A stretch of DNA of 64,000 bases from positions 15,421,432 through 15,485,431 of the forward strand of contig NC_092679.1 of assembly GCF_964355755.1 (NCBI RefSeq), in the 5' to 3' direction. The stretch is from Antedon mediterranea. Taxonomy: Eukaryota > Animalia > Echinodermata. This document shows, piece after piece, positions 6,601-49,500 of the stretch. A program made the translations under genes and the position numbers. The notes below the pieces were generated by a model. It was not told where the DNA came from. It was given only the letters and a program-made list of their open reading frames with translations, and made no database searches. Each line of letters starts with the position of its first letter. Within the stretch, counting starts at the first letter, position 1.

Positions 6601-8283
6601 CTCAACATACTGGCAGAGCAAGTGATTGGCAAAAAAGTGTACAAAAGTTTTATCATTCCAAACAAGTACACTGGAGAACTCATCGGAGTGGAGTACCTGT
6701 ACAACCAGTCGAACAAAGTGCTCGAAACTCAATTTCCTGTCAAAACAGATACCATTTATGATGAAGACTTTGATGAAGAAATTTACACTTTTGATGTTGA
6801 TGAAGGGTATGATGACAAGACTCAACCAGACTACAAACCACCTAAGCGTTGTTTTAAACCTCGAAATGCTAAAGAACCCTCACCACCCCAGCTGGAGCCC
6901 TTGCCTTCATGTGACGATAATGATGATGATGGTCAAGGAAAAGCAGCCCTTTTTGACACAGTGAGTTAAATTTGTGTCATTAGGTTCTACCTCACAAATT
7001 TTGTTTCTGTTTTGAAATACAATGCACGAGTCTGATTATATATTTTGTTTTCATATTTTACAATTTAGGAACTTGAGGATTCCACTGGACCGGACAACAT
7101 TCCAGGCTACGCCAAAGTTGAAGCCATGGCAGACTACCTTATGCAGTTTAAGGAAGACAGTGGAGTGATAAGTCAAAGTCATGCTGAACATGTCGCAAAG
7201 TTGTGGAACAACCTGGATGCTTATGACAAAACCATTAAGCGCAAAGCACGGCATCAAGATTACCTGACGAAAGGCAGGTTCAAGAAAAGTAAAACTACTT
7301 CCGTAATACCTGGTGTCGAAAGCACTCGACGGTAAGGCAGTTTCCAGCGTTTTTTACTTTGTTGCATGATGTGTCTTAAATCTAAGTTGTTTCTTTGGTT
7401 TTTTTTTTAAAAGATGCTTCTTAGGTCAGAACACCGGGCCAGCTCAGTGGCCGGACTGCAATCGATATATGGAGTGCATTATTACAAAACTATGTGAAGC
7501 GTATCCATCTACCGTATCTATCGAAGGTAGACGTTTCCAGCGCTGGCCGCTCATTACCAAAGGCTACAAGAACATTCGTCGGAAAGTGCTATCGAATGGA
7601 CACCTTATGTTGTTTGCTAAGCTTCAGTTGATGGAGATAAATCGTACGACACTCATCCAGTGGTGAGTTTTTACTTGTTATTGATTGTTATTTTACGCTA
7701 CAGTAAATACATTAAAGTTTTTAAATACTGTGTTTGATTTATTTTCAACAGGTACAACAGAACGTCAAAGAAGCAAGAGCGGCAAGTGTTGGAATCTGGC
7801 ATCTCGGCAACAATACCCAAACTTGTCTCTGATAAAACCCTACTTGAACCTTTAACCAAGCCAGCGGTGCTAAACGTTCATACAAGCGCTCCATCTTTCA
7901 CATTTGTCCTACCAAAAAACACTTCCGGCCTAGCGACTCAAGGAAACAGACCGTCGATCCCAGTTCCTGGCGAGATAGCAAAACCACCACCATCAGTCCC
8001 TGAGGCTAGCAGTACTCGTATTCCTAGAACTACCCTCTTGTACAGAAAACGAGTGGCTAAAGACATATCGGAAGGGAAACCGATCAAAATATACAAACCA
8101 AGAACGTCTGCGATTGTGTGCTCAAAGTGTAAGCAACCAAGATTAAATAAGAACCACACTCAGTACTATGGAAATTGGTATTGTGCTGCAACATCTGATG
8201 TGACTTTTAAAGAATGGAAATCGGCTATGGTTGCCATCCGTCGCCTTCGTCAAGAGAGGAAAAAAAAGCAGCAAAAAGAATGA
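3685..8283 (+). CDS. Intact spliced DDE transposase-like protein (DUF6729-like N-terminal part, IS256/MULE-like DxxH core, C-terminal C2HC knuckle), ~1250 aa
   Basis: Exons 3685-4231, 4467-4538, 4652-5448, 5569-6364, 6464-6960, 7069-7331, 7414-7662 and 7752-8283 are all GT-AG, phase-consistent and stop-free (3753 nt). Motifs: LKIDST (D), LYVDRDCC (D), LDIWH (DxxH), RGSTSLESFH (E), CSKC...H...WYC. Confidence 0.85.
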
Positions 8284-19580: not shown

Positions 19581-22500
19581 TTAGAAGCATCCTGAGAACT
19601 GGTTTGCAAGAAGCTTATCCAAATAACTAAACATAAAAATAAAATTGTATGTGAATACTGCAAAAATTCTCATTTTTCCGCTGACCACATAACAGGGAAT
19701 TTATTTTCCTATCCAATAAATCGGTAACAGTATATTTTTCTAGTTGAGGTCTGGCCCTACACACCAAAATTATCTGCTACATGCACAAGCGCAACTTGTA
19801 TTACATACATACGCAAGGTATATAGTAATACCGAATGTTTAGAATAGAAATCACTGATCATGGTCGTGTTTGTTCAATTGCTTGTGTCAAATTCATGCAT
19901 AAAGAAGTAGTGTTTGCTAATCCATAGTTAATCTGGCCTTCACTGCTTGCTTTAAGAACTCTAGATAAAAATGTGTATTCCGGCACTGTACAATTAAGTC
20001 CCGAATATGAATATACTGTAGATAAAAATGTGCATGCTGCGTACATAACAGTACAATTAAGTCGCGAATATACTGGATTTCTGTGCATGTATATTTCCCA
20101 AAACATTGTTAATTTCTTTGTTAGTACAGAATCGTAAATGTAGGAACAGCTTATCTTACCTGGCATTGTATTGTTCAACTCTCCCTTTCAAGATGTTTGG
20201 ACCAAGATATTTGCCTAATTCTACCAAACACAGACTGGCTGCACTGCTCGTCAAGGCACTGTCACAAGACTATACATAAAATAGATGAATACAAAACTAT
20301 AATGAATATTTATGACTTTGGTAGATAAAAACTTTTTTATGAATTTACATGTATTGCTAACTGTTTATTGAGCAATTTACTCAAAATTAGAAAACTAGAA
20401 TTGCTCTATTGCTCAAGTGTTTATCGGAGAAACTGAAACTTAAAACAAGTAAACATTTAATATTTTCTAGTTAAGTTTCACTTGTTCCGGTTTGCTGATT
20501 TATAATGGTCATTGAAAATAAGTTATGGGTTTTCCAAGTAATATTTTTAAAACATCATTCATCAACCTATTGTAATAAACCAACAAATATATCAAAGGTA
20601 ACCATGACCAATAAATTGTGTGATTTCAATGTATAATCAAAATAACTGATTACAGTATATCTTCTGGAATTCAAACATGATATAGATATGAATGCAATAA
20701 AACCAGTCAAAGTTCATTCAAAGTGGTAATATAAGTTAGTGTTTCTGAGTGTTTATAAACCAGTCCAGAAAGACTACCCAAAGTGGTAATAAGTGGTTGC
20801 AGTGTGTTTATAAACCAATGCAGTAAGTACCTGCTCTTCTTGTATAGTAAATCTGATTCTTTTTTTCTGTTTATTTCAATGTATTTGCTTCAACACTGTC
20901 ATATAAAAACTACTGTACCCGCCTACTTTGTTTAGGAAAATTGTATTGACGGCTGCTGAGTCACAGAGTTGAAAAGATTACACAAACTTTACCCGGTTAT
21001 AGCTCAGATCATGTCTAATAAACAGCTCTTGAGTCATAACATGGTGAAATGTATTTGTAGTATAGCATTTATCTGGTTCCAACAAATACTAAGTGGGGAT
21101 TTTAACTTTTATGTTGAACCTATTAAACTGTAGTTATTATTATACTTATTTTTAACATGACAACTTCTTTAAATAATTTTAATAACCATCCAGTCTCTTA
21201 TTTTCGTTTTCACAATTCTACTCTAAAAAATAAAAAAAGCTGTATACTATCATATTTGAGTAAGGTTTAATTAATATAGCTTTGTGTTTGTTGATTCCAG
21301 TATTGGTAAATATGTTTTGGCAAATTGATATAGAAAAGCAAACTAAATATTTGGACTGTTTGTACATTAATGTGCAGATTTTGAATTTCACTTTTAATAC
21401 GGGCTGGAAAGAGAGCAACATTTCACAGTCAAAATGTACACACCCGTACCCTCTATCGTAAAAACCCTATTGCAATGTTTTATACACAACAAATTATTAT
21501 TTTATAATAAAAGATATGAAAATAAATAAGAAATATTTTTCATTTATAGATGTCTTCTAACCAGGAAATACAGATGTGTTCTACTCATAATCTAGAATTA
21601 GAGTTCTTCTGTTCAACTTGCAAGAAAGCTGCTTGCACAGAATGTGAACATTTTCTGGATTGTCAGCAAAAACATGAAATGATTAAAATGAAGTCTGCTA
21701 TTGATAATTTTAATCAAGAAACAACTGAAGTACTCAAGATAGCCGAGGACGTTAAAAAGGATTTGGAGGAAACCTTTTATTCTATTAGTGAGAATTTATC
21801 TCACTTTAAAGATCAGGTAGATTTATGCAGAAAAGCTATTGAGGTTCAGGAGAAGAAACTTATCCAAGCAGTTCAAGCAAAAATTAAAGGATTGATTTTG
21901 GAACTTGAAGAAAAGCAAAAAACAATTGATGAAGATATTTCTGGTCAATTTGTAGATCTTGATGCAAGGAGAGATCAAGTTAATGATGAAATTAAATCGG
22001 TAAATTTAATACTAGACCAACCAGAAAAATCTAACACTCTTTCAAACTATAAGAAAAGTATCCTTAATGTTAAAGATAAGGTTTGTGGTATCCGTAAGGT
22101 ATTTCATGGAAAAAGTGTCACACCAATTTTTATTCCATCTACTAATGTAAATGGTTTGATTAACCAAACTGACATCGGTGAAGTGCTAATGGTTAATACC
22201 AATTATACAATTGCAGAATCAGATAGACAATTTACTGTTGCAACAGGACAAACTTTTAAAGTCAAAGTATCAAGTCTTGAAGAGGGTGAATTAACTGCCG
22301 TTTTTACTTCTGACTTCTGTCAAGAATCTGCCATTAAAATCAAACACCAAGGAAGTGGAGAACACATAATACCCGGTAGATGTGATAAGGAAGGTAATTT
22401 TCAGCTTAAGATAAGTGCTGAAGACGTAGAGATCAAAGGATCACCAGTAAATATCAAGGTGGAACCGCTTGGACTTGTGCATATTATTGATAACATTGAA

Positions 22501-25500
22501 CAGTATAAAGACCATCAAAATAACTATCGTGTTATGGATGTTGAAGTAGACATGGATGGTTGTATATTAGTATCAAGTGGTAGCAGAGAGGTTCTAAAAT
22601 TTGATCAATCAGGTTTATTTAAAACTAAAACAGAAATGACACAAAATGTACAAACCCTGCATCAAATGAGTGATGGTAGAATAGTAATCAGTAACACAAA
22701 CTGTGTTGTATTATGTAATGATAAGTTTCAAGAAATTCATAAATTTGGTGAAGGAACATTAACATATCCATTTGGTTTGACAGTTAACAAGGAAAATGAA
22801 GTCTTGTATGTATCTGATTGTGGAGCTAATTGTGTTTATAAATTTAATATTAACAATGGTGATCTAGTAGGAAAAATTGGATCAGACATATTGAAAGGAC
22901 CAGAACATATATCTTTGACCAAAGATGGACATCTGATTGTTTGTGATGCCCAAAATAGCAGAGTACTAATTTTTGATGATAACGACAAAATAGTAAGAGA
23001 AATAAAAGGAATACCATGGATTCAATACCCTTGTGGTGTGGCAGTTGATAAAGAGGAAAACATTTTAATTGTAGATCATATAGGTATACACTTGTTTGAT
23101 AAAAAAGGTCATTGTAAAAAGAAAATTTATTGCAGAGAATTCAGCAAGAAACTTATTTTTGCAAGCATCTGTGTAATCTCGAACAGACCTCGAAAGATAG
23201 CCGTGGCCAATTTCGGCACAAACGATGTTAAAATATTTAACTATTAAATTAAGTACTTTATTCAATAATTCTTTGGATTTCATAGATAACTGCTCCTCAC
23301 CCTTTGCATTTTCATTGCACATTTGCCCTAACAAAACCAACGAAGGTTGCAACTCTCTAACTTATAATACAATAAATTTATCAATGGGAGCTATCGTGTA
23401 TTTTCTTTCTCCTAAACTTAACTTTCTTTCAAACCAAAACAAAATGTGTATTATTTATTGGATTATGTACTCTATAGACCCACAGCAGCTAATGTGCAGT
23501 GGCAGTTAATGTGCAGTGGCAGCTAATGTGCAGTGGCAGCTAATGTGCAGTGGCAGCTAATGTGCAGTGGCAGCTAATGTGCAGTGGCAGCTAATGTGCA
23601 GTGGCAGCTAATGTGCAGTGGCAGCTAATGTGCAGTGGCAGCTAATGTGCAGTGGCAGCTAATGTGCAGTGGCAGCTAATGTGCAGTGGCAGCTAATGTG
23701 CAGTGGCAGCTAATGTGCAGTGGCAGCTAATGTGCAGTGGCAGCTAATGTGCAGTGGCAGCTAATGTGCAGTGGCAGCTAATGTGCAGTGGCAGCTAATG
23801 TGCAGTGGCAGCTAATGTGCAGTGGCAGCTAATGTGCAGTGGCAGCTAATGTGCAGTGGCAGCTAATGTGCAGTGGCAGCTAATGTGCAGTATACCAATC
23901 TACTCTTTTTGAATATTATATTGTAATTTATACATCCTCTGCATTTTTATTTTATGTTATGTTTGTATTTTTCACATGATGAACAAAACAAAAGTAAGTA
24001 AACAATTTTCATAACTAGGCCAGCAGCCATCTTAGTTTAAAAGAGAGAGAGAAAGATTTATTCAAACTCTTAGCAAAAGAACTTCCTACTTGTTATATAG
24101 GAAGACATGTATGCAAGTAATATATTGATGGTCAATTTTTTTTTCTGCTTTTTTCAGTGTAGAATTACACAAATTTAAAGTGTGGTTTGAAAATCAAGAA
24201 CAATTATTTTGATTTTTTAGATGGCTTCTATCAAAGGGCTACAGAATATATGTTCTACTCATAATCTAGAGTGCGACTTCTTTTGTTCAACTTGCAAGAA
24301 AGCTGCTTGCACAGACTGTGAACATTTTCTGGATTGTCACCAAAAACATGAAATGATTAAAATGAAGTCTGCTATTTGTGATTTTAATGAAGAGGCAACT
24401 GAAGTACTCAAAATAGCTGAAGAAGATAAAAAGGATATGGAAGAAACATTTTATTTGATTAGTGAACATTCCTCTTACATTAAAGATCGGACGGAGTTAT
24501 GCAGAAAAGCTATTGAAACTATTCAAGTAGTTCAATCAAAAATCAAGGAATTAATTATAGAACTTTAAGAAATGCAAAAAACTAAAGATCTTGATGGCAA
24601 GAGAGATTATGTGGATAATAAAATTAAATCGGTCAATTTGCTACTAGACAATCCAGAAGAATCTAACACTCTTTCAAACTATAAGACAGGTATCCTTGAT
24701 GTTAAAGATAAGGTTTGTGGTATTCATCAAATATTTCATGGAAGGAGTGTTGTACCTAATTTTATTCCATCTATACATATACATGATTTGATAAACCAAG
24801 ATGGCATCGGTGATGTGCTAATTGTTAATACCAATACACAATTGCAGAATCAGACAAAAAATTTACCATTGCAATGGGACAAAGATTTAAAGTTAACGTA
24901 TCAAGTCTCAAAGAGGGCGAGTTTACCGCTATTCTGACATCTAAATCTGATCAAGAATCCACTATGGTAAAACATGGGGAAAGTGGAGATCACATAATAA
25001 CAGGTATATGTGATATTGAAGGCGATTGGCAGATGAAGATAATGGCTGGAGATTATCAGGTTAAAGGATCTCCAGTGAATATTAAGGTGGAACCTTTTGG
25101 ACTTGTGTATACCATTGATAACATTGGACAGTATAAAGAGCATCAATATAAGTTTAATATCATGGATGTTGCAGTAGACATGGATGGATGTATATTAGTA
25201 TCAAGTGAGAGCAAAGAGATATTGAAGTTTGACCAATTAGGATCATTTCAAGGCAAAAAAGAGATGACTCAAAATATACGAACAATGCATCAAATGAGTG
25301 ATGGTAGAATGGTATTTAGTACTTCCACAAATTGTGTCATATTATGTGATAATGAGTTTCGAGAAAGTCTCAAATTTGGTGAAGGAATGTTTAAATATTC
25401 ATTTGGCTTGACAGTTAACAAGAAAAATGAAGTCTTGTATGTATCTGATTGTAATGCTCACTGTGTTTATAAATTTGATATTAATAATGGTGATCTGTTA

Positions 25501-28500
25501 GGGAAGATTGGTTCAAAAGAAATTAAAATGAGAGAACCATGTCATATAACTTTGAATCTCATTGTTTGTGACAGGTTAAACAGCAGAGTACTAATTTTTG
25601 ATAAAAATGAAACAACAACAAGAAAAATCAAAGCACTATCATCAATAACTTATCTTCATGGTGTGGTAATGGATAAAGAGGAAAACATTTTAACCTCTGG
25701 AGAATTTGGAGTAAATTTGTATGATAAAAATGGTTGCTTTAAAAAAGAAATTTTCAGAAGAAAAAAAACCTGGAAAATTGCTTATCCTAGCATATGTGTA
25801 ATCTCAAACAGACCACGAAAGATAGCCGTGACTGATAGCAAATCAAAAGATGTTAAAATATTTAACTATTAAATAACTTTAGGAACTAATTTCCTGGATT
25901 TAAAATAGATACACCAAACTCTTTCCTATTCTCTATTTTGAAAATTATGGACATAGAGGAGCCACAAGTGAACAGAACACCCTTGAACATCCTATATTCT
26001 AACATTCCAAATATTTTGGAGCAAATTATTAGATAAATTAAACAACTTTTAATAAAAGATATTAGAAATAAATATATTTTTTCTTGTATTTTACAGATTA
26101 TTATAAAATTTTAATATTAAAGACATTTAATTTCATTTGCTTTTGGTAATTATTTTCTTGATCAGTTCCATCATACGATGTAAAAATCATTTTCATTTTA
26201 GTCATGTGGTCAATACTTCAGCATGTACTGTACAATATGATTTTGTTGTTGATTTTTTAAAACTTTAAATATTTAGTGCATTGCATTTTATTGTTTACAT
26301 TTTACTAATTATAAAGATAAATTAGTAATCTTCTACGATTGAAACAGGGTTTTAAGTCATTTTTAAATGGCTATACAATTACTTCGAAACAAGACAAAAA
26401 AATTTTAAAAAGTAATCTACTTTTCAAACACCTACAACTATTGTATGTAATTTAACCAATAGCTGATGAGTCACAAAGGAGAACAAATAAGATATATTGG
26501 TTGTAACCCAAGAAGGATATCATTAGGTGATCCGAACACCTGTTGTAATTCTTCTTTCTTTCTAAGGGCGCGTTTATACAACACGCTATTACACGCATAT
26601 TCTACACGCCTACGAGGAGTGTGTTGTATAACAACAAAGAGATTCCGTGTAATGAGATTTTAATTGCAAAAAAGGCTACTTGGCTGAATCCTAAAATTTG
26701 GTGGATTCCCGGTCGCCGTTACCGTGTTGGAAGTGTCCTCAGGGTATATTTTGACCTCTCGTTAAAACAGGTCGTAATATCAATCATGTCATGCGACGTC
26801 TAACAAGATTGGGCCCATTTATTGCTGCTTCGCTGCCAGCAATCATCCTCCTACCACGTCTTACGCCTAGCCTGGTAGGGCCAACTCGTAGTGGTAGTAG
26901 GCCTCTATAGACTATCGTTTCCCACTCCAAACAGAATAAAAAATAACATCGCAAAAATGGCATCTTCTTCCATAGTGTATAGATGAAACAATGAAACCCT
27001 TAAAATAACTTTTATTAATTTAAATGAACCGAGAACAAAATAAACAACAATGCAAACGTGAACGAATACAATAATGAAAACGGTAAAAACCGCGCGAATA
27101 CATCGGACAGCGAGGAGGCGACGATGATTTGTTGACAACAACCCAGCCAACAATTCAATTCAAGCGATCAACGATTTGACCTTTTATCCTAGCATGCACT
27201 GCGTGTTGATGAAACTTCCGGTACAACACGGTATCGTGATTTCTAGTATAACAGCAAACGTTAAGGTGGGTTGACCTCGGTCCGAACAACACGCTAAAAA
27301 TTAAAGCCGTGTTCAAATTTAGGGTGTTGTATAAACACGACCTAATCCTTTTGTTGGTTGTCATTCTCGGAATAAGCAGTAATCTTGTTTTGGCCAGCAA
27401 ATAGATATAATAATTTTACACAATCTGAATTTGTGCAACTGTAATATTTTATGATCATATATCATATTAGCTCGTACGCAGCTAGAAAGACCGTTTTTGC
27501 ACATGATTTTGGTTCTTGATACCTTTTATAATAAATTCTTTTCATTTTTGATGAATTATGAATATAAAATAGTGACACACGTGCACATCAAACTTTAAAA
27601 ATCGTGCACTAGAGCTTGACAATGGGTAATTTTATACAAAATTTGTGTAAAAATATGCCTATTTTGAATCGATTATAGCTCTCGGGGATTGATGGTTACC
27701 AATGAGTTGTATGAGTTCATGTGAAATTTAGGTTATGCTGTCATCATATGGAAATCTGAATTTTAAAAATTGGATTTTGATACAGTTCATTACAATGTTT
27801 TCAATTTTCTTTCTAATTTTCAATATGTTAGTCAAACAATTCTCCTTCAGACATATGAACTTTTTTTTTTAATTTGAAAAATTCATCATATTCAAACAAT
27901 TTAATAAACGCGAGTGGTGTAACATAAAACCCTAATAAATATCATGTGCATGTTACGATGCATTGCACAATAGCCTAATTGAATTTCGATGCATTCATGC
28001 ATTTTTCTTTTCTAAAGTTTTCTCTAGGTACCAACTTCAGAATTTAAATTACATATTGTTGTTCAGATCACACATCACCAAACTATTGTAAAAGCATCAA
28101 TGGGAACCTGTCGCCAATGACGCAAATATTGTGTAGTTCCAATGTATTGAAATAACTCATTAAAGTGTATTTTCAGCAATTCAAACAATAACAATAGAGT
28201 GTTAAGAGAGAGGTATGCTTAATAAAAAGCAGTCAAGAAAAGGTAGTCAAAGTGATAAGGTTGCAAGCTTCTTGTTCTAACCTTAAAATCGTAAAAGTGG
28301 CACATTAACAGTAAGTAAATGCTTTTCTAGTGTAGACTAAATCTGATATTTCTTCTCTGGAAATAATAGCAAAGTTGTATGTACTGGGTGTAATTTTCAA
28401 CGAAGCTGAAATAGTTTACAAATCTGAAGGTGTGGCTTTATCCAAATGCTACTTTTCACTTTGTAGAAGTGATTCACAGGCTGGGAATTTTATAGATGAA

Positions 28501-31500
28501 CTTTATTCTTTAATAGGATACTATTTTATATTTATAATTTGATCACAAACACGGTATATTTCTAAAATATTTTAGCATATTTTATCGTGTACTTAACAAC
28601 GAATTGCATCTTCACCACAATAAGCTTTCCAACTATATTATACTATTACAGACAAAGTACCATGGATTCTATTTGCTTGATTGGATTATATCATCCAAGC
28701 ATCACAATTTCTTCAATTGAGATTATAAAATGTTCTCAGCAATAAATGCATTAAAAATCAAATTAAAGTTTTTAAAAGTGTTTAATAGAATAGTATGAAG
28801 ATATTTCTAATTGTTTAGATATCTAAACAAAAAGAACAAATTTGTTCTAAAATTATAATCTACAGTACTGCAACAATAAAAATGCATACATTTCTTGAAT
28901 GTAAATAGATAATAGTAAAAATTCAAGAAATGTGTTTCAGAATTATTTATTTCCTAATCTTCTAGATGTCTTCTAAAGAAGAGGTACAGATGTGTTCTAC
29001 TCATTATCTAGAATTAGATTTCTTCTGTTTAACTTGCAAGAAAGCTGCTTGCACAGAATGTGAAAATTTTCTGGATTGTCAACAAAAACATGAAATGATT
29101 AAAATGAAGTATGCTATTGATACCTTTAACCAAGAGGCAAGTGATTGGAATTTTCTATTACTGTATTTATTCGAATAAACGTCTGCTTTGATAAATATAT
29201 AGATAAGACATTATTCTTACATAAAACAAAAGAAATTAGTATAGGATAACCATTTATTGTGTCTTTGATAAAAATAATAAGAACAATAAAATCGCTGTAT
29301 CACCATATTATTCCTCTTACATTATGACGTCATTTGATTGGACGTGTTAAACTTTAAAAATTATTTTCACCAAAGGTAGCATAGATAGTTATTCTATAGT
29401 ATTTAGATTTCTTTTGTTTTATGTAGGAAAAATAAATGTTTATCTATTTATCGTTATCGTCCTAGTGTAAATAGGTTTAAAATTTGCAGATGAATACTAA
29501 ATATTTAGGATCAAGGGTGGCATATGGTGCATTCAGCTATACTGGTACCTACCGTTTATAATAATAACCGAAGAATATTTGTTCTACCATCAGAAACATG
29601 GAACATAGCTTGCATAAATTAATGAGGATGATGATTTAAGGCGCTCCTTTTATTTTTTTGTCTTTTAACAGATGTGTTGCTCTCATAACCAACCATTAGA
29701 CTTCTTCTGTTTAACATGCAAGACAGCTGTTTGTAGAGAATGCGAACATTTTCTTCACCAGCAAAATCATGAGATCGTTATCTATTTATCGTTATCGTCC
29801 TAGTGTAAATAGGTTTAAAATTTGCAGATGAATACTAAATATTTAGGATCAAGGGTGGCATATGGTGCATTAATTAATGAGGATGATGATTTAAGGCGCT
29901 CCTTTTATTTTTTTGTCTTTTAACAGATGTGTTGCTCTCATAACCAACCATTAGACTTCTTCTGTTTAACATGCAAGACAGCTGTTTGTAGAGAATGCGA
30001 ACATTTTCTTCACCAGCAAAATCATGAGATCGTTATCTATTTATCGTTATCGTCCTAGTGTAAATAGGTTTAAAATTTGCAGATGAATACTAAATATTTA
30101 GGATCAAGGGTGGCATATGGTGCATTCAGCTATACTGGTACCTACCGTTTATAATAATAACCGAAGAATATTTGTTCTACCATCAGAAACATGGAACATA
30201 GCTTGCATAAATTAATGAGGATGATGATTTAAGGCGCTCCTTTTATTTTTTTGTCTTTTAACAGATGTGTTGCTCTCATAACCAACCATTAGACTTCTTC
30301 TGTTTAACATGCAAGACAGCTGTTTGTAGAGAATGCGAACATTTTCTTCACCAGCAAAATCATGAGATCGTTACAATGAAGAATGCAATTTCTTCTTTTA
30401 ACCATGAAGCAACTGAAGTACTCAAGACAGCTCAGAAAGTTAAAAAGAAATTGGAGAAAACATTTCATTCAATTACCGCAAGTGTCACATACTTTAAAGA
30501 CCAGGTAGATTTATGTAGAAAAGCTATTAAAGTTCAAGAGAAGAAAATTATTCAAGCCGTTCAAGCAAAAACTAGGAATTTAATTTTGCAACTTGACGAA
30601 ATTCAAACAACAATGGAAGAGGGTGTCAAAGATCAATTTGAAGACTTAGACAGAGAAAGAGATAAGGTAAATGAAGGAATTACATCAGTCAATTCAATAT
30701 TAAACAAACCACAAGAATTTCAAACTATTGTAAAGTATAAGGCAAGTATCACTCCTGTTGAAGATAAGGTTGATAGTGTTTGTCAATCATTTCATGCAAG
30801 AACAACTGTACCAAATTTTTGTCCATCTAAACCTCTAACTGATTTGATAAACAAGGACAATATTGGAAAAATAACAGTTCACAGTCTTTATAAGGTTGCA
30901 GAATCAGACCAACAGTTTGCAGTAACAGAGGGGCAAACATTTGAAGTAACAGTATCACGTCTCATACTGTGTCCAGACATTCAATTAACTGCAGTTCTGA
31001 CATCCAAATCTGGTCAAGAATCTATCACCGAGATCAAACATCTGGGAAATGGAGAGTACAGAATAATAGGTAGATGTGATAGGGAAGGTGATTGGCAGAT
31101 GAAGATCATGGCTAAAGATGTAGAGATTAAAGGATCTCCAGTAAATGTCACCGTGGAACCTTCTGGACTTGTGGAAACCATTGATAACATTGGACAGTAT
31201 AAAGAAAATGAAAAGTGCAAACCTGTTGTGGATGTTGCACTAGACAAAGATGGATGTATATTAGTATCAAGTGATAGTAAAGAGGTATTAAAATTTGAAC
31301 AATCAGGTTTATTTAAAGATAAACAAGACATGACACAAAATGTACGTACAATGCATCATATGAGTGATGGTAGAATGGTGTTTAGTGACAACAACAAATC
31401 CGTTATATTATGTGATGATCAGTTTCAAGAAATTCGCAGATTTGGTAATGAAACATTTTTTAAAGAACCACTTGGCTTGACAGTAAACAAGGACAATGTC

Positions 31501-37500: not shown

Positions 37501-40500
37501 ATAGTAAATTAATCACTGTCCTAATGTATGTGGTAATCCCTTGATATATGGGCTATTTTTTGAACCACTGCTGTAACCCCCTACTCATCTTGAATGATGA
37601 ACTGGGTGCACACAGGTTGTTTTATAGACTTATTCCACCACCAGAACAAAGAGCAAGTCAGCCTCAAACCATTGCCGATATTGTTGGCTCGTTAGGTACA
37701 GTAAACGGCGCCCCTGCCTTAACTACTCGGCCATTTAAGATATATATATATAAAATGCGTATATTTAAAATATATTATTATTTCATATTTTAACTAATAT
37801 TAACACTAATACTTTAATATTTTTTAATTACTAACTACCAACATTCGGTTGCCCAAAAGTATTACATGTTCAGTTTTTAGTCACGTGGACGCGACTCTAT
37901 AGTTCACTCGGTCGGTCTGTCTGTCGGTCTGTCTGTCTGTCTGTCGGTCCAGTATCACTATTCATGTTATCACTTTCTGACCTTATCTTGATATCAGTTT
38001 AATCTAGCTAAGTCAATTTTTCACAGTATATTCCTTATGGCCAGGAATCGATGTGGTTATGTTTTCACGGTGCGCAATAAAAAATTACGCGGTCTACGCA
38101 CGATTTAACAAAATCACTTTTGTAATCATATCTTCACAACCATGAATCACAATTAAATAAAATTTGGTACTCATAAATTTCAGGGCATCAATCATCATAT
38201 GGCAATACAATTTCGTGCGTAGCGCATGTAACGCATGCGTACGCGCGCTTAAAATTTTCAAAAATTATTTTCGATGAAATAAGAGTACGTTTCAGGCAAT
38301 TTTAAGCGTTTACAAAATTGCCATGAGTGCGCAGGTTTTTGCGCGCGCACTGAGCGTTAAATGTTGTTGCGCACTCTTTTTGCCCGATTTCTGTTTTCTT
38401 GACTTACTTTTCAACTAGAAATTACATTATACGAACACGTCAAAAGTGACAGGCTACGCACGTGTAAATTAAAAAAATATAAATGTTTTTAAACATTTCA
38501 ACATTTTTAAACATGTTCAGTAATTTCGATCAGTATAGTTCACTATGTCGGTCTGTCTGTTGGTCCGGTATCACTATGCATTGTAGCACGCGACTTAATG
38601 GCTGTTGGCCTTGTTTTATTGGACTGCACTTTGCAATGTAAATGTATTTATGGTATTCTCCAGTAACATTACATTGTTTGGGCATAACAGATATTGACTA
38701 AAATATGGTATACCAATTTATTTTCTAGTGGCATCTAACCAGGAGGTACAGATGTGTTCTACTCATAATCTAGAATTAGAGTTCTTCTGTTCAACTTGCA
38801 AGAAAGCTGCTTGCACAGAATGTGAGCATTTTCTGAATTGTCAGCAAAAACATAAAATGATTAAAATGAAGTATGCTATTGATAATTTTAACCAAGAGGC
38901 AACTGAAGTACTTAAAATAGCTGAAGAAGTTAAAAAGGATTTGGATGAAACCTTTTATTTGATTTCTGAACGTTCATCTCACTTCAAAGACCAAGCAGAG
39001 TTATGCAGAAAAGCTATTGAGGTTCAGGAGAAAAAACTTATCAAAGCGTTGAAAGAAAAAAGTAAGAGATTAATTTTGGAAATTGAAGAAAAGGAGACAA
39101 AAATGGAGGAGGGCACCACTGGTCAATTTAAAGATCTTGATGCAAAGAGAGCTCAGGTGAATGATGAAATTAAATCAGTCAAATTGATACTAAACAAACC
39201 AGTTGAAGCTAACACTCTTGCAAACTCCAAGACAAATACCATTGATATTAAAGATAAGGTTTGTGGTATTCATCAATCACTTCATGAAAGATGTATTGCA
39301 CCTAATTTTATCCCATCTACACATATAAATGATTTGATAAATCAAGATGGCATCGGTAAAGTTTCAATTGTTAATACAAATTACACAATTGCAGAATCAG
39401 ACAAACAATTTACTGTCATAAAGCAACGTGGATTTGAACTTAAAGTATCAAGTTTCAAAGAGGGCGTGATTACAGCTGTTTTCATTCCTGAATATGGTAA
39501 AAAATATGCCTCAATGATCAAACATAGGGGAAGGGGAGAGGAAAATATACCATGTAGATGTGATATTGAAGGTGATTGGCAGATAAAGGTAATGGCTGGA
39601 GATCATCAGGTTAAAGGATCTCCAGTGAATATCAAGGTGGAACCTCTTGGACTTGTGCATACCATTGATAACATTGCACAGACAGTATAAAGAGCATCAA
39701 AATGAGTATAAGGTCATGGATGTTGCAGTAGACAGGGATGGATGTATATTAGTATCAAGTGAGAGCAAAGAGATATTGAAGTTCGACCAATCAGGTAAAT
39801 TTAAAGGCAAAAAAGAGATGAGGCAAACTGTAAGGACAATGCATCAGATGAGTGATGGTAGAATGGTATTCACTGATGATACAACTTGTGTTACATTATG
39901 TGATGACAAGTTTCAAGAAATTCGCAAAGTTGGTGAAGGAACATTACAATATCCATTTGGCTTGACAGTTAACAAGGAAAATGGAGTCTTGTATGTATCT
40001 GATTGTAATGCTGATTGTGTTTACAAGTTTGGTTCAGAAAAAATTAAAATGGAAGAACCATGTCATATAACCTTGACTAAAGATGGCCATCTCATTGTCT
40101 GTGCCTATTACAATGACAGAGTATTAATTTTTGATGAAAATGAAAAAATAGCAAGAGAAATCAAAGGAACATTTACGATTATGGCACCTTTTGGTGTGGC
40201 AGTGGATAAAGAGGAAAACATTATAATATCAGATGATGGTGCAATAAAATTGTTTGATAAAAATGGTTGTTCTAAGAAGGGCACCTACATTTATAGAAAG
40301 TTAAGTTGGAATCGGGCCCGTCAAAGCATTTGTATAATCTCAAACAGACCACGAAAGATAGCAGTGTCTGACATCGTATCAAAAGATGTTAAAATAATTA
40401 ACTATTAAATGAGTCTAATCTATTTCTTGCTGGACTCAATATAGATACACTGAACTCCTTCACGTCCCTCCCATTCTTCAAATCATTTTAGACAAATGTG

Positions 40501-43500
40501 TACACTGGTTTTAGTTTAATGCCAGGGTAGCATTTTTGCACAAAGTTGTTGGTCAAAACCGAGAGAAAATACAGAACAAAAACAAAGGAACAGTCTGTGA
40601 TTAACACCTCGCTAACAAGATGCAGAGATCATCTGGTTAAAGGATTGCCAGTAAATGTCTCGGTGGAACCTCTTGGGACTTATATAGACTTTTTCTCATT
40701 CTCACAGATTTCCTCATCTTTATCGTTTCAAATTAATTAATTAAATTTTAGTATATCACCGGGCGGTTTAGAATTAATGTTCTTTGCCTCTTGTGTGCAC
40801 TGATGAAGGGCTAGTGTTGCCCGAAAGCTCTGCTAACTTTTCTGGCTGTTTACTTTATCGTTTTGATTTAGCTTTTCGCTTTTTATTTTTGTATCTCCAT
40901 TGAGATCCAGCCACTGATACCCACAGCATTGTAATTTTTTCAGTAATTTGCCTTTGGATTTATATATATATATATATATAAATCAATGATGTTGCGTAGC
41001 ACTGTGTAAATTATATATAAATCATACTGTAAATTATAGAAACAGTGCTCTTTTTTCATACAACTAAAAAATAGTATTTTTCTTTTCTTTCTTTGAATAA
41101 ACATTCTAAGGCACATAAAAGGTTGATAATTTATTTACCAGTTTTTAAATCACTACGCAGATAGGAAGCACAGCAAACATACACCTCCAGTCAAATTATA
41201 ACAATGATAAATTTTATATTTCATAACATGACATTTTCCGCTCTTAATGCCAATGTATTTGATTGATACTGGTTTAGATTCCTGGCTTACAACCACAATG
41301 AAAAACATCTGCTAAATAAGATTTTTACTGCCGAAATACTACTACAAAAATGTCCATGATGAATACATTTTTTTTCAAACTTGATTTGTAAATGTTTTTA
41401 AATTGCATTTTTTTCTGAAATAGTTGTAGGCAATTTCAAATGGCTTAAACTGTAAAAAAAGGTATAACTGACCGATTTGTCTGAAAGTATTACTACCATG
41501 CAATTTAACCAATTGAAATATGATAAATCAAATAGGTTAATCAACAAGATAAGATTACTGATAGTATTACAAAATTGTAGCAGGTTATAACAGAGATTAT
41601 GTCATTAGCTCTTGTTTACTATTTGGAGAACAATGTATTCAGCAAATGTACAGTAAGTAATGTTTTTTTTTCTGTAATCAGACCTGAGTATGCAGCCAGC
41701 TGGGTTGATGGCGAAGGGGTTTAAAAAACTAGAAATAGTTGATACAATTTTGGATACTAGTGTAAGATATAAACAACTATCAATGTAAAATGTCAGTAAT
41801 ATAGTATAAAACTTTAAATAACAGGGGGCAAGCCATGATTCTAACGTTTTGATCTTTATTTGATCATCAGCAATTATCAATAAACAATAATTCCAAATGT
41901 CAATAAATATGTAACTATTATTATGATTTCATTTCACCATTCGTAATAATTGTTTTAATTAACTTTCAATTAACCAGGTAAGGGTTAAAAAAACAACCTT
42001 TAGTGTCTACTCCAGGGCACAGACATGTTGATCTGGCCTAGCAGCAGATTAATTGAACTAAGAATCTATTTTAAAACAGTGGATGTGTTATTAAATAATT
42101 GTTAGTATTCATCTATGAAAATTAATCATGTTGATAATGAAAATATTCTCCCTATTCAAATCATAAACATTCATCATGTGTATACTCATTTCCAAGAAAA
42201 TTGATTTGATAATCAAAAATTAAAAACAAAAATAAGGTATTTGTATTTTTTAGATGGCTTCTAATCATTTCTTCTGTTCAACTTGTCAACAAAAACAAGC
42301 TATTTGTACTTTTAACCAAGATGCAACTGAAGTACTCAAAATAGCTGAGGAAGTTAAAAAGGATTTGGAGGAAACCTTTTATTTGATTAGTGAGCATTCA
42401 TCTTACTTTAACAATCAGGCAGAGTTATGCAAACAAGCTATTGAGGCTCAGGAGAAGAAACTTATCCAAGAAGTTCAAGCAAAAAGTAAGGAATTAATTT
42501 TTGAACTTGAAGAAATGCAAAAAAACATGGATGAAGATATTGCTGGTCAATTTGATAATTTGGATGCAAAGAGAGATCAGGTGAATGATGAAATTAAATC
42601 AGTCAATTTAATACTAGACAAAGCAGAAAAACCTAACACTTTTGCAAACTTCAAAGCAAATATCCTTGATGTTAAAGATAAGGTTTGTGGTGTTCAGCAA
42701 TTATTTCGTGGAAAAACTGTTTCACCAAACTTTATCCCATCTACACAAATACATGATTCAATAAACCAAGATGGCATCGGTGAAGTGTTAATTTTTAATA
42801 CAAATTACACAATTTCAGAATCAGACAAACAATTGACTGTTGCAACAGGACAAACATTTGAAGTTAAAGTATCAAGTCTCAAAGAAGATGAATTAACTAT
42901 TGGTTTGACTTCTGCATCTGGTCAAGTATCTACTACTAAGTTCAAACATCAGGGAGGAGGAGAGTACATGATAAAGGGTAAATGTGATATTGAAGGTGAT
43001 TGGAAGATAAAGATAATGGCTGGAAATCATCACGTTAAAGGATCTCCAGTGAATATCAAGGTGGAACCTCTTGGACTTGTGCATACCATTGATAACATTG
43101 GACAGTATAAAGACAATCAAAATAAGTATAATATCATGGATGTTGCAGTAGACACGGATGGATGTATATTATTATCAAGTGAGAGCAAAGAGATACTAAA
43201 ATTTGACCAATCAGGATCATTTAAAGGCAAAAACGAGATGACTCAAAATGTGCGGACAATGCATCAAATGAGTGATGGTAGAATGGTATTTAGTACTACC
43301 ACAAATCATGTAATATTATGTGCCAAAGAGTTCCGAGAAATTTGCAAATTTGGTGAAAGAACATTAACATATCCATTTGGCTTGACAGTTAACAAGGAAA
43401 ATGAAGTCTTGTATGTATCAGATTGTAGAGCTAATTGTGTTTATAAATTCAATATCAGTAATGGTGATCTCTTAAGAAAGATTAAAATGAAAGAACCAGG

Positions 43501-46500
43501 TAATATAACTTTGACTAAAGATGGTCATCTTACTGTTTGTGCTTGGGGAAAAAACAAGGTGTTAATTTTCGATGAAAACGAAAAGAATGCCAAAAAAATC
43601 AAACTAAAATCAACAACGTTATCACCTTTTGATGTGGCGGTGGATAATGAGGAAAACATTATAATATCAGATGATGAAACAGTACAATTGTATGATAAAC
43701 ATGGTTGTTTTATCAAGGAAATTTACACAAGAAAATTTGCTCTCAAACAAAATCGTCTTGCAAGCATCTGTGTAATCCCAAACAGACCACGAAAGATAGC
43801 AGTGGCAAATGACGAAGCAAACAACTTTGTTAAAATATTTAATTATTAAATGATTCATAACTCAATAAATTTAATATAGATAAATTGAACTTTGTCTCCT
43901 CCATCTCCATATTCAATGGACATAGAGGAGCCACAACTTGCATTAAATCACGTAAAGTAAATTCGGCAATGTTATTTGGTCTTCTTAGCAGTTAAATCTG
44001 TGGACTGGATTAAGTGAAACAGATGACAGACCTCGTGGCCATTAATATATAATAAATAATCATTTTGAGCATACCAAAATTAGTTTAAAACTTGATGATT
44101 CATTCCAGTTACACAATAATGTTTCAATCTTCAATATCACTTTATTATCTTTTGTTCAGTTACTGTATCTATCGTGCTGATATGATGTTTTTTAATCATT
44201 TTATTTTAAAAGGTATATTTTAAATATTTAGTGCTTCAAATTAAATTGATTTTGTTCAATATAACATTTTATTAATATAATAGGAATATGATCACTATAA
44301 ATTAATTTAAGAAAAGGGTTTTTCGGTAGACAATTTAGACAGAATTTTTATATATTTTTAAAAACTTAAATTTCAATAAGTGATAAATTTGGTCGCTTTA
44401 AAATAGTTTGTATACTTTTTATATAAATAAACTTTGTAAGGCACACTGACTGACTGTAATATATTACTCTTTAAAATGAATATCGATTGAATTCAAGGCA
44501 TTCATGCATTATTCTTTCTAAAGTTTTCTCCAGGCCCCTACTTCAAAACTTGAATTACATGTTGTTGTTCAGATCACAGCGAACCTGCCGACCATGACGA
44601 AAATAATGTGTATACATCTCCAATGTATTGAAAATAGAGTAGTTGTATATAAACTTCCATTTCTTGTTTTAAAGTTGAAAAAGCATTTTAACAACAGTAA
44701 GTCATTAAATAGTACTCACAGTGATAAGGTGTCTATTGCTTGTTCTAAAGTCGAAAAAGCATTTTAACAACTGTAAGTCAATGCTTTTGCTTTTCATTAG
44801 TATTATACTATAGTAGTAATAGTAGTATAGTAGGAAAGAGTAGTTTCTGCTGGCTGTTATATTTTTCTAGCTTTTCCTAGTAATTTTTTTTTTAAAATCA
44901 GACCTTTTCCACTTTAAATCACGGCATACGAACATGTTGAATTAGACAATTTGCGTGCATTTTAGTTGAAAAATTGACCAAATATTGTCAAATCAAGTCT
45001 ATTTTGAATCTATTATACATAGCTCCTCAGGATCAATGGTGACCCTCAATTTTTGTGGGTTACTTATTTTCATCTTTACAGTAAATTTCAATCTCTTATA
45101 AATACATACCATCCAACCAAAATTCATTCGTACAAAATAAAAATCATCCATCTTATCTGATACAGTTCAATGAAAATTTAAATAATTCACTTAATATTTA
45201 CATCATCTAATACAATGTGATGTCTTCAGTGTTGGAGAGCCACTCAGTATCCCTAAAGGCCGGTGCACACCGAACGCGAAGCAACGAATTTCGCGTTAAA
45301 AAGTGACGCACGCGGCAGGCGACGGACGCTTCCAGTGTGAACATACAAGCGAACAGTGTACGATAGTCGAATTTCAACTTCAACGCGTTGAAAACGACAG
45401 CAGCGAAGGCTTCGCACGCGAATTTTCAAAAGTTGAACCGTGGTCAACTTTTTGAGGCGTCGCGAGCGCGGTTCGCGTTCGTCAACCAATCAGAAGTCAG
45501 GAATATCTCTCATCGACGACACCGACGGCAAAAAAATGGTGGCTGACGAGCGAGGTCTTTATGGAAATAATTTGTCATTACCCTTCTTCTTACGATAAGG
45601 GAAGTAAGTCATACACAGACAGAAACATAAGGATTAATGCATGAAGACAATAATTTCAGACAAACATCTGTGTAGAAGAATGCCAGAAAAACTAGGCCTA
45701 AAACGTGTCAGAGATCAATTTGTAAAGTGAGTTGGCAAGCCTTCTATTTCTAGCCTACCTAGGTTTAGGCCATACTAGGGCCTAGCTAGCCTAGGCTACA
45801 TATACCCTAGTAGGCTAGGCCAGGCCTAGCCTAGGTTAAACCTACAAATAAATGAGTACAGTACTAGGCTAGGCTAGGTTTAGCCTAGGCCTAGGCTACT
45901 TATTATTATTAATTAATATTTATAGGCCTAATATTTAGTTGATTTAGTGTTGTAAGGCTAGGATAGGCCTAGGCCTAGTAGTAATATTAATACATAAATA
46001 CTGTTGTTTTTGTTTCTTTTAGGTCAATTAGATGAACATTGATAAATTGGATCCTTCAGGCTATTACCAGCGTTACAAACTCCACCAATGACCAAGCTAG
46101 TAGTTTAAGCGGCCAGTATATTGCCATGGAATTAAGAGCAATTGCTCCTCAAAAACGTGGACTGGCAATTATGAGGCTGACACAGGTTTGTATAGACTTT
46201 TTTCAAATGTGTATGTCAGTTGGTGACATACATTGGCCAGAAAAAATGATTTGAGCAATATGCCTTACTATAGCAATTTTTTAATACTTGTTTCATTTTT
46301 TTTTTATAGAAAATGGAAAAGATTAAGGAGGAGTTGGACTGTAACTATAGTATAGTATACTACTAGTATTTATTAAGTGGTTATAGAAGGAAAGCTGAAC
46401 TGAATGTCTTTTTTTAGCAATAGAGAACACATGGAAATATATGTATATGTAATAAAAAATAGTCAAATTGGCTGCCAGCTAATGGAATTTTTTTCATTTT

Positions 46501-49500
46501 ATAAGTGAAAACATAAGTTTGTTTGGGTTTTTTCTATGTAAGTGATTAACTTTGTTAAAACTACAAAATGTCCTATTCAAATTTGATTTTAATCATCTTC
46601 ATTTTTCATGATTCTATGGGACAATACATCTTTAAGTTTAGTGTCATTTTTTGGACAAGATATATTGTCTTCCTGAAAATATAATTTAAAACATTTTCGT
46701 TGTGTGTAATACAGTATAACACTTTAGGGTTAGTTATTCACTTTAAACAATAATATTTCTTCAATTTTCATTTTTTTTAGGATGATGCATTTTAAATTTA
46801 TTATTTTGATATTATTTTGCGAAAGTATTCAGGAGTAGTAAAAAAGAAAATCTGGTTGATATTTAATGATACCTTTAAAAACAATGATTCACTATTTCAA
46901 TAAGTGTATTTATGTGAAAAAGTCATAAGATAATATACAGTGTAAATATGAGTTTGGGATATTTATTACATTTAATCAAATGAGAAAAAAACTGTATGTT
47001 TTGTCATGAATAATATAATATTTAATAATAATTAGAAAATGAATGTGAAAACTTTACATTATTAGGCCTATAGTTTATATTTGAAAGTGACAAACCCAGG
47101 AAGATTCCCAGTTGTTTCATTTTTTTTTTTTATAGAAAATGGAAAAGATTAAGGAGGAGTTGGACTGTAACTATAGTATAGTATACTACTAGTATTTATT
47201 AAGTGGTTATAGAAGGAAAGCTGAACTGAATGTCTTTTTTTAGCAATAGAGAACACATGGAAATATATGTATATGTAATAAAAAATAGTCAAATTGGCTG
47301 CCAGCTAATGGAATTTTTTTCATTTTATAAGTGAAAACATAAGTTTGTTTGGGTTTTTTCTATGTAAGTGATTAACTTTGTTAAAACTACAAAATGTCCT
47401 ATTCAAATTTGATTTTAATCATCTTCATTTTTCATGATTCTATGGGACAATACATCTTTAAGTTTAGTGTCATTTTTTGGACAAGATATATTGTCTTCCT
47501 GAAAATATAATTTAAAACATTTTCGTTGTGTGTAATACAGTATAACACTTTAGGGTTAGTTATTCACTTTTAACAATAATAATATTTCTTCAATTTTCAT
47601 TTTTTTTGGGATGATACATTTTAAATTTATTATTTTGATATTATTTTGCGAAAGTATTCAGGAGTAGTAAAAAAGAAAATCTGGTTGATATTTAATGATA
47701 CCTTTAAAAACAATGATTCACTATTTCAATAAGTGTATTTATGTGAAAAAGTCATAAGATAATATACAGTGTAAATATGAGTTTGGGATATTTATTACAT
47801 TTAATCAAATGAGAAAAAAACTGTATGTTTTGTCATGAATAATATAATATTTAATAATAATTAGAAAATGAATGTGAAAACTTTACATTAATATTAGGCC
47901 TATAGTTTATATTTGAAAGTGACAAACCCAGGAAGATTCCCAGTTCGTGTTTATATGAAATGTTTTATATGGTTATAATAACCTCTGTTGAAAGATATTT
48001 GTAACAGCAGATCACATGTACGTGTAATCAACATGCAATAAATGCTTTAATTATTGTAACTGTATTGATATTGGATACATCTTCTTCTGTTCTTGTGATA
48101 TATACATACAATCATGCACATTTCAGGCTTTGGAAAAGGATAACATTTTCCCACCAAAACCAAACACTGTGATTGGTGTAACCAGGGAAGAGTTAAATTA
48201 CATTTTAATTTAACTCTTCTCTGGTTAAACTTACATAGGAAATACTTCAGTCATCTTCTCTGATTATTTTTAATGTAGCATTGTATTGGCAAACCCACTA
48301 TCTCCTAGGCCTAGCAATCGCGACGAATCAGCACATCGTGACGCGTTTAGTGGGAACTGACAAGAAAAACTAATAGACGCATGACAATTCAACTTTCGAA
48401 GCGATCCGTTGAATGACGCTTCGCGGCTTCGCGTTCGGTGTGCACCGGCCTTAAACCAGGGATGTTGGGTCTCTGCTAATAAATTGGCCTTTTATTGATC
48501 TTTCCAGGGAAAGTCAGCATTATCGATCACACTGTTTCCATCTGAGGATTCGCGCAGAGTCTTTGTAACCTCGTTGAATGTTCACCTCATTGAAAAGTAA
48601 ATTCAATAGAACAGTCATCTCATTTAAAAAACAGTTTAAAATTAGTCTTGAATGAATATTGAAATACTGTACAAAAAAAGTGTATACTCACCAAGGCATA
48701 AAATAAAGGATCAAAGAATTTATCCAAATGTGATTTAAATCTTCTCTTATCTATATTTTTGGCTATGACTGGTAGCTGTGGATAAATAATGAAATATACC
48801 AGACCGTTAAAAATTGTACTTGTATAAATAATAAATGTTGATAAGTTGAATTTTGTTATGCGTTTGTTTCTGAACGTTGTCTGGTCTGTGTGTAAATTTA
48901 ATGATAGGTACCTAAACTGGTCGCTGAACCATCCTGGTAAGTGATGCAGAATGTATTCAACATCAAGTCAACCCGGGACGAACCTGTGTACTTGTAGAAG
49001 GTATAAAGAGCAGACCGTTACTAGGGTGTCTCTTCATGACGTGAAGGACGATATTTCGATTAATCTAGAACATTTACACGGGTTGGTATTTTGCAGTGTA
49101 AATACATGTAATCAGTGTCATTCCCGTGTTATGAATCAGGTGTGAAATGGAAATTATCCGGACACGACACAGGTTTGTTCCAAGCTCGGCGGTGTAAAAG
49201 GGATATAAGTACTGTATTATAAACATGCTCGTTCTGATACCTTAAACTATTGAACATTTGAGCCTTTATACTCAACCTCAGAACAGCAATTTGCTAATAG
49301 TAACAAACTGGTTTTGCACCACATTACAATTACAGCAGAAATCATATTGAGACATGTCTGTAAAGCAGGGGACACACTTCCGCGAAAATAACATGGAAAA
49401 TTATATGTTTTAACACCAAAGGGGTAAAGAGAAAATTTGTTGGGTCCCGAAAGTGTCTCCTTATTTAAATATTCACCTGTTTACATATGGTCTCTAACAG

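What the first reader, a model, noticed from the sequence alone, without database searches (positions are those of the whole stretch)
20270..48691. Entire TRIM-NHL gene cluster nested antisense in one 28.4-kb intron
Seen: the minus-strand HEAT gene exon ending ...FFDPLFYAL (48692, phase 0) has its next phase-compatible coding exon I can find, SCDSALTSSAASLCLVELGKYLGPNILKGRVEQYNA, at 20269-20160. The stop exon follows at 19626-19581. All five TRIM-like copies and fragments lie between them on the opposite strand, while the host's other introns are about 0.4-4.5 kb. Inference: a rapidly duplicating family expanded inside the intron of a conserved gene, raising possible transcriptional interference or co-regulation.
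Basis: partly seen in the sequence, partly recalled or inferred. Interest (0 to 1): 0.7.

Follow-up and report, generated by a model that had tools for sequence, protein, structure and literature searches.

The report
TRIM gene array inside an intron
In what is likely a feather star genome, five copies of a TRIM-NHL gene (two intact, one missing its zinc finger, two broken) lie back-to-front inside one 28-kb intron of a conserved HEAT-repeat gene; they likely arose from one founder by old tandem duplication, which is a known kind of arrangement, and one face of their propeller domain changes about four times faster than the other, as would be expected if it recognises changing targets.

Summary
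Observation confirmed. The 15 minus-strand exons translate without a stop and match 582 of 582 residues of RefSeq XP_071962564.1 (Antedon mediterranea). The peptides flanking the 28,422-nt intron are contiguous in 52 of 69 homologs. All 808 TRIM-family hits lie inside the intron, none on the host strand.

Corrections: it is a whole local array, not the whole family (17 named Antedon relatives lie on six other sequences). It is old rather than rapidly duplicating: copies are 73-81% identical and form one clade. All lack a RING finger, each begins AG|ATG (one AG|GTG), and only two are intact.

Best reading: one founder in the intron, then tandem birth-and-death, with no evidence of regulatory coupling. 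Opposite-strand nesting with several inner genes is well documented. This scan noted a similar TRIM nesting in a clam (not checked here).

The extra result: amino-acid change concentrates on one face of the NHL propeller (dN 0.59 vs 0.15, p=0.0002), by topology the face that binds RNA in LIN41. Positive selection is suggested, not proven. No RNA run was available, so expression, splicing and interference are untested. Interest 0.3.

The parts
48692..62003 (-). Host HEAT-repeat gene, 13 coding exons in the window (62003-61828, 61391-61306, 60765-60599, 59419-59310, 58787-58678, 57952-57850, 57285-57199, 52746-52604, 52172-52063, 51446-51277, 50165-50059, 49618-49477, 48775-48692); the first 103 codons were not found in the window
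   Evidence: Pfam HEAT, HEAT_EZ, TPR_DNAAF5 on P0002
20270..48691 (-). Host penultimate intron, 28,422 nt, phase 0, GT...AG
20160..20269 (-). Host penultimate exon (SCDSALT...QYNA)
19581..19626 (-). Host last coding exon with stop codon
20604..20869 (+). Conserved non-coding module with a consensus donor (GT at 20823); likely promoter/5'-UTR exon of T1
   Evidence: similar to 28117-28359, z=24 against shuffles; function inferred
21550..23247 (+). T1: intact 565-aa B-box, coiled coil, filamin-like, six-bladed NHL protein; AG|ATG start; no RING
24221..25872 (+). T2: broken copy (in-frame stop at 24566, 1-nt frameshift near 24835)
27978..28359 (+). Second copy of the non-coding module, donor at 28311
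28966..29145 (+). F1: 60-codon 5' fragment, 90% identical to the 5' ends of T1 and T4
29672..30034 (+). F2 and F3: two recent duplicates of the T3 acceptor plus its first 36 codons (identical over that stretch)
30265..31959 (+). T3: intact 564-aa copy, the most divergent; no consensus donor between F1 and its acceptor
38728..40408 (+). T4: broken copy (AG|GTG start, 4-nt frameshift near 39677)
40624..40689 (+). Small duplicated piece of the filamin-NHL linker
42254..43849 (+). T5: open 531-aa frame with the B-box removed by in-frame deletions of 39 and 63 nt
44486..44780 (+). Third, orphan copy of the non-coding module; no TRIM coding sequence follows
   Evidence: z=31-38 against the 28311 module; no family hit past 43864

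Best explanation
Five TRIM-NHL gene copies without a RING finger lie antisense inside the 28.4-kb penultimate intron of a conserved HEAT-repeat gene; they likely descend from one founder that landed there and was then tandemly duplicated, with copies likely kept by selection for a long time and lost one by one, and with no predicted functional link to the host. Shown: the host exons are one gene, all family hits are inside the intron, the copies form one clade, two are intact, one lacks its B-box and two are broken. Inferred: the duplicated unit was a non-coding first exon, a short intron and one coding exon, copied at DNA level by unequal crossing-over; the array made the intron long (22.3 of 28.4 kb lie between first ATG and last stop); the antisense orientation is tolerated because the host's splicing machinery does not see the inner splice sites. 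Predicted: the proteins dimerise through the coiled coil, cannot ubiquitinate on their own, and bind diverging ligands on the free face of the propeller.
For: Host continuity. Containment and strand. One clade: SH-aLRT 100, stem 0.63 in a quick IQ-TREE tree of 41 rows; support 1.0 in a 74-row FastTree; nearest outside relative 46% or less. Age: 73-81% nt, 55-68% aa identity; neutral branch lengths 0.18-0.22, T3 0.39. Long purifying selection: omega about 0.3 in the propeller core and 0.5 in the N-terminal half; a neutral T1 stays stop-free in 0.4% of 1000 simulations at 0.1 substitutions per site, yet three frames are open and T2 and T4 carry two lesions each. Unit of duplication: acceptor directly before the start codon in all 8 copies and fragments; module with donor repeated three times. 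Family background: 41 close relatives, all named crinoid, several per scaffold. Precedent: 71% of Drosophila nested genes are opposite-strand, with as many as 13 genes in one host (PMC5174743, passages).
Against: No RNA evidence for the junction or for any TRIM copy. The upstream module is not detectable before T2, T4 and T5 (z at most 3.6) and T3 has no consensus donor of its own, so 'one promoter per copy' is only partly shown. The intron could not be read in any other species, so when the founder arrived is unknown, and host exon capture or rearrangement around an existing array is not excluded. 'No link to the host' is a default, not a test. The careful tree search did not finish.
Confidence: 0.8

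Rival explanations
1. The nesting is regulatory: induction of the TRIM promoters sends polymerases head-on into the host's last long intron and lowers or truncates host transcripts, or host and array share enhancers.
For: Geometry allows it: up to 22 kb of convergent transcription; the T1 module lies 335-550 nt from the host acceptor; an orphan module points at host exon 48692. In C. elegans a nested gene induces a short form of its host (PMC12274878, abstract and introduction).
Against: No expression data. Host and inner proteins share no known pathway. Drosophila nested pairs correlate no better than random pairs (PMC3814207). None of 36 named Anneissia family members lies on the 476,766-nt scaffold that carries the host ortholog; this is weak, because annotation can miss nested genes.
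Confidence: 0.08
2. The array is one transcription unit with alternative last exons: a few upstream donors choose among the AG|ATG coding exons.
For: Eight acceptors but only three clear upstream modules; T3 would have to use the 28311 donor and skip F1, F2 and F3; only 973 nt separate the T1 stop from the T2 start, 407 of them minisatellite.
Against: Consensus donors also lie 0.2-1.3 kb before T2, T4 and T5, and poly(A)-like signals follow each stop. At this divergence non-coding modules may simply have decayed.
Confidence: 0.07
3. The array is a silent graveyard: all copies are now unexpressed relics.
For: Three of five copies are damaged. No protein matching T1, T3 or T5 is in either collection.
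Against: T1 and T3 are intact with omega well below 1 over most of their length. The neighbouring, non-nested GPCR is also missing from the collection, so absence says little.
Confidence: 0.1
4. Assembly artefact, or the 20-kb exons belong to a paralog.
For: No laid record spans the intron; F2 and F3 are identical duplicates that could be assembly errors.
Against: The model equals one RefSeq protein; no second copy of these exons and no alternative last exon in the window; the copies are too divergent to be haplotypes; a 615-nt DNA contig crosses the exon 48692 donor with no differences.
Confidence: 0.03

Closest known systems
Opposite-strand nested genes with several inner genes (Drosophila: Assis 2016 PMC5174743, passages; Lee and Chang 2013 PMC3814207, first quarter of text; mammals: Montibus 2024 PMC11694760, passages)
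   Same: Short, fast-evolving duplicates antisense in the largest intron of a conserved, many-exon host.
   Different: The inner genes are one tandem family that seems to have grown in place. The intron is the second-last, whereas mammalian nests favour 5' introns. The founder likely had a 5'-UTR intron, which argues against a simple retrocopy.
TRIM-NHL proteins, subfamily C / class VII (TRIM2, TRIM3, TRIM71/LIN41, Brat; Marin 2012 PMC3503706, passages)
   Same: B-box, coiled coil, filamin-like domain, six-bladed NHL propeller; best fold matches are LIN41 filamin-NHL (E 4.5e-24), TRIM2, Thin, Brat.
   Different: No RING and one B-box only; 20-25% identity to the solved members; belongs to an expansion whose close members are all named crinoid; NHL domains of T1 and T3 are near neutral (pI 6.5-6.9; T5 8.5).
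Teleost finTRIM, btr and trim35 multigene families (Boudinot 2011 PMC3137616, abstract and passages)
   Same: Lineage-specific TRIM multigene family with variation concentrated in loops of the C-terminal domain.
   Different: The C-terminal domain is NHL, not B30.2; no RING; immune function and positive selection are not established here.

Membership tests
Opposite-strand nested genes | Flanking exons belong to one gene | tested here: met
   582 of 582 residues equal one RefSeq protein; 52 of 69 homologs ungapped across the junction
Opposite-strand nested genes | Inner genes lie wholly inside the intron, on the other strand | tested here: met
   808 of 808 coding hits inside, none on the host strand; UTR limits are inferred only
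Opposite-strand nested genes | Both host and inner genes are transcribed | not testable with these tools
   No RNA holder listed
TRIM-NHL (subfamily C) | N-terminal RING finger | tested here: not met
   No RING hit in the window from the N-termini of 41 relatives, 24 of which carry a RING motif; so TRIM-like, not a canonical RBCC ligase
TRIM-NHL (subfamily C) | B-box followed by coiled coil | tested here: met
   zf-B_box 27.9 bits in T3 (cut-off 24.1), 18.1 in T1 and T4 (below cut-off); helices 47-153 and 158-187 in the model; B-box deleted in T5
TRIM-NHL (subfamily C) | Filamin-type domain plus six-bladed NHL propeller | tested here: met
   Model pLDDT 84, best match LIN41 filamin-NHL; Pfam NHL above cut-off in T1 and T3, Filamin below cut-off
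TRIM-NHL (subfamily C) | RNA binding through a basic face of the NHL domain | not tested
   Only net charge was computed; contact residues were not mapped
TRIM-NHL (subfamily C) | Orthology to TRIM2/3 or TRIM71 | tested here: inconclusive
   Similar scores to both groups; no tree with vertebrate members was built
finTRIM-like diversified immune TRIM families | B30.2 (PRY-SPRY) domain | tested here: not met
   C-terminal domain is NHL
finTRIM-like diversified immune TRIM families | Positive selection on ligand-binding loops | tested here: inconclusive
   M1a/M2a 2dL 35.9, M8a/M8 11.2; null simulations with site-rate variation reach 26.8; loop omega 1.42 with shared dS, 0.70 with a free rate
finTRIM-like diversified immune TRIM families | Induction by infection | not testable with these tools
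   No RNA data

The most novel reading that the evidence does not exclude
The array is part of a crinoid recognition repertoire: RING-less TRIM-NHL sensors whose propeller face is diversified by an arms race, doing with an NHL domain what finTRIM and TRIM5 do with B30.2, and pairing through the coiled coil with RING-bearing relatives encoded elsewhere. The intron nest is then a sheltered site where such sensors are born and lost, and their induction could throttle the host's 3' end.
Probability: 0.2. Interest if true: 0.6.

Novelty: new member of a known kind. Interest (0 to 1): 0.3.

Why it matters
The arrangement itself is a clean but ordinary case of opposite-strand nesting. Two things are of use. 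First, it records a tandem birth-and-death array growing inside an intron: one clade, graded decay, and a repeated upstream module. Second, it points to a crinoid TRIM-NHL expansion whose variation sits on the likely ligand-binding face of the propeller. If selection there is confirmed, NHL propellers would be candidate diversified sensors in echinoderm immunity. I found no paper on this expansion or on a TRIM cluster nested in an intron in the searches; these cover open-access text only.

Tried and rejected
No whole genome is held, so synteny and the rest of the family were read only from protein records and their contig lengths.

RNA test: no RNA holder listed. Run X1, guessed to be RNA, covers introns and repeats like the DNA run, so it was not used for splicing. 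No reads were laid on the 20-kb end or on T1-T4, so local assembly there, the reality of F2/F3 and whether the lesions are fixed remain open.

Alternative last exon near 48 kb: rejected; read-through of the donor stops after 23 codons and no homologous peptide exists. Upstream RING exon: none in the window. Orthologs of the nested clade: none above 46% identity. Absence of T1, T3 and T5 from the collections as evidence of silence: rejected, because the non-nested GPCR is absent too. Synteny with Anneissia through the GPCR: its best match lies on another scaffold, uninformative in a fragmented assembly.

AATAAA on the host strand is not depleted in the intron relative to the other strand (1.72 vs 1.72 per kb). 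Rfam: 0 matches in 17000-50000.

Positive selection as a firm claim: not accepted; the likelihood models are my own implementation on five sequences, with gene conversion and multi-base changes not modelled, and I defined the loop classes after noticing the variable loops. A recalled precedent (the IFIT cluster inside LIPA) was not confirmed from the search listing and is not relied on. No complex prediction was run. No supplementary files were read.
Full report
Verdict. The nest is real and the coordinates are right. It is best read as an old tandem array of RING-less TRIM-NHL genes that grew inside one intron of an unrelated conserved gene. This is a new example of a known arrangement. Regulatory coupling is untested. 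The most interesting by-product is fast change on one face of the NHL propeller.

Host gene. Fifteen minus-strand exons from 62003 to 19581, all with AG acceptors and the first 14 with GT donors, translate into 582 residues without a stop. These equal residues 104-685 of P0002, RefSeq XP_071962564.1, named Antedon mediterranea, on a 25,047,721-nt sequence; the window is therefore likely from this feather star. The protein is an uncharacterised HEAT-repeat protein with homologs from sponges to invertebrate chordates. Of the 69 homologs, 55 align across the junction between exon 48775-48692 and exon 20269-20160, 52 without a gap. The intron is 28,422 nt; the 13 others are 431-4452 nt. No alternative last exon was found: of 548 candidate phase-0 peptides only the one at 20269 resembles the Anneissia exon, 171 against 32. 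The junction was not seen in RNA: no RNA run was listed, and the one run guessed to be RNA behaved like DNA.

Inner genes. Five full-length copies and four fragments lie on the plus strand. T1 (21550-23247) and T3 (30265-31959) are intact. T5 (42254-43849) is open but has lost its B-box. T2 has a stop and a frameshift; T4 has a GTG start and a frameshift. With 91 family proteins as queries, 808 of 808 hits fall inside the intron, none on the host strand. TRIM coding sequence is 8.8 kb (31% of the intron), and 22.3 kb lie between first ATG and last stop, so the array likely made the intron long. An AlphaFold model of T1 (pLDDT 84, 36-sequence alignment) shows a small N-terminal domain, a long coiled coil, a beta-sandwich and a six-bladed propeller; the best fold matches are LIN41 filamin-NHL, TRIM2, Thin and Brat at 20-25% identity. 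No RING-coding sequence exists in the window, although 24 of 41 close relatives carry a RING motif. Short relatives that also start at the B-box are annotated in both crinoids, so this architecture is not peculiar to the nest.

Unit of duplication. All eight copies and 5' fragments start with a splice acceptor directly before the first codon. A non-coding module with a consensus donor occurs before T1, before F1 and, without any coding exon, after T5 (z 24-38 against shuffles). The depth bin holding the start of the last copy is at single-copy level in run X2, so it is unlikely to be a common repeat. Before T2, T4 and T5 there are consensus donors but no clear module (z at most 3.6). T3 has no consensus donor of its own and three acceptors lie upstream of it. 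I infer a gene of one non-coding exon plus one coding exon, copied at DNA level; shared donors remain possible.

History. The five copies form one clade on a long stem: SH-aLRT 100 in a quick tree of 41 rows, from which 5 of 41 relatives with short alignments were dropped and whose careful search did not finish; support 1.0 in a 74-row FastTree. The nearest outside relative is 46% identical or less. Copies are 73-81% identical in DNA, with neutral branch lengths of 0.18-0.22 and 0.39 for T3, so whole-gene duplication is old; only F2 and F3 are recent. Omega is about 0.3 in the propeller core and 0.5 in the N-terminal half, and a neutrally evolving T1 would stay stop-free in 0.4% of runs at 0.1 substitutions per site: the copies were selected for most of their history and T2 and T4 likely died late. 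The array is not the whole family: 17 named A. mediterranea relatives lie on six other sequences (only 9 of the 150 representatives were looked up by name). None of 36 named Anneissia relatives lies on the scaffold that carries the host ortholog. This hints at a lineage-specific nest but is weak: T1, T3 and T5 are themselves absent from the collection, and so is the non-nested GPCR next door.

One fast face. Using the model's strands, I split propeller loops into the face formed by D-A and B-C loops and the opposite face. Among the five copies dN is 0.59 against 0.15 (permutation p=0.0002); among 33 relatives column entropy is 1.76 against 0.96 bits (p=0.0001). The strand that follows the filamin linker closes blade six, so by topology the fast face is the one opposite the filamin domain, which binds RNA in LIN41 (PMC5908797, passages; top-surface binding also in PMC9070667, passages); this mapping is inferred, not measured on coordinates. 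A site model favours a positively selected class (M1a/M2a 2dL 35.9 after removing gap-adjacent columns; 5 of 6 high-posterior sites on this face, which holds 39 of 417 sites). Against this: M8a/M8 gives only 11.2; 12 null simulations with site-rate variation reach 26.8; loop omega drops from 1.42 to 0.70 if the loops get their own rate; and I drew the classes after seeing the variable loops. Concentration of change is shown; positive selection is suggestive only. Relaxed constraint on exposed loops is the plain alternative.

Mechanism. Shown: one host gene, one antisense clade inside one intron, graded decay. Inferred: a founder inserted antisense, where its splice and poly(A) signals are invisible to the host transcript, a bias documented in Drosophila (PMC3814207, first quarter of text; PMC5174743, passages), followed by unequal crossing-over and loss. 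Predicted: RING-less dimers that bind diverging ligands and need a partner ligase, if they signal through ubiquitin at all. Interference is geometrically possible and has precedent (PMC12274878, abstract and introduction), but nothing here tests it, and nested pairs on average are uncorrelated.

Comparison and novelty. Nested genes are 9.5% of Drosophila genes, 71% are opposite-strand, and one host can hold 13; in mammals they favour the largest intron (PMC11694760, passages). TRIM families often expand in tandem (PMC3503706, passages), and teleost families diversify their B30.2 loops (PMC3137616, passages). Searches (listings only) found no paper on this locus, on the crinoid expansion or on an intron-nested TRIM cluster. 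Class: new member of a known kind. Interest 0.3; 0.6 if the diversified-sensor reading holds (probability 0.2).

Noticed in passing
window 12705-17341 (+): Secretin/adhesion-type 7TM gene, convergent with the host, with a somatomedin B domain and about 128 Gly-X-Y collagen triplets in five blocks, mostly in one 3.8-kb open frame. Its best match in Anneissia also has collagen; three named Antedon paralogs on the same 25-Mb sequence show no collagen domain. A collagen-stalked GPCR may deserve its own look.
   Followed up: partly
window 3643-8283 (+): Multi-exon gene with DUF6729 (E 1e-78) and inverted repeats near 8.0-8.9 kb; possibly a DNA transposon (inference, not tested).
   Followed up: no
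window 44486-44780 (+): Orphan copy of the upstream module with two consensus donors and no coding exon after it; if active it would give a non-coding antisense transcript heading into host exon 48692.
   Followed up: partly
window 28311-30265 (+): One donor followed by four AG|ATG acceptors (F1, F2, F3, T3); only the last gives a full protein, so T3 output would depend on skipping three decoys, unless F2/F3 are assembly duplicates.
   Followed up: partly
window 46288-47945: Head-to-tail duplication of about 826 nt at 98.7% identity, high-copy by read depth. The intron also holds several minisatellites.
   Followed up: no
P0002 (host protein): The 685-aa HEAT protein is uncharacterised yet 45-65% identical across invertebrates; no vertebrate-named hit was among the 69 homologs from one exon query.
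   Followed up: no
P0153, P0154, P0157, P0159, P0164: Some family relatives are much longer (896-1939 aa), with tandem TRIM units or other N-terminal regions; either fused gene models or further architectures.
   Followed up: no
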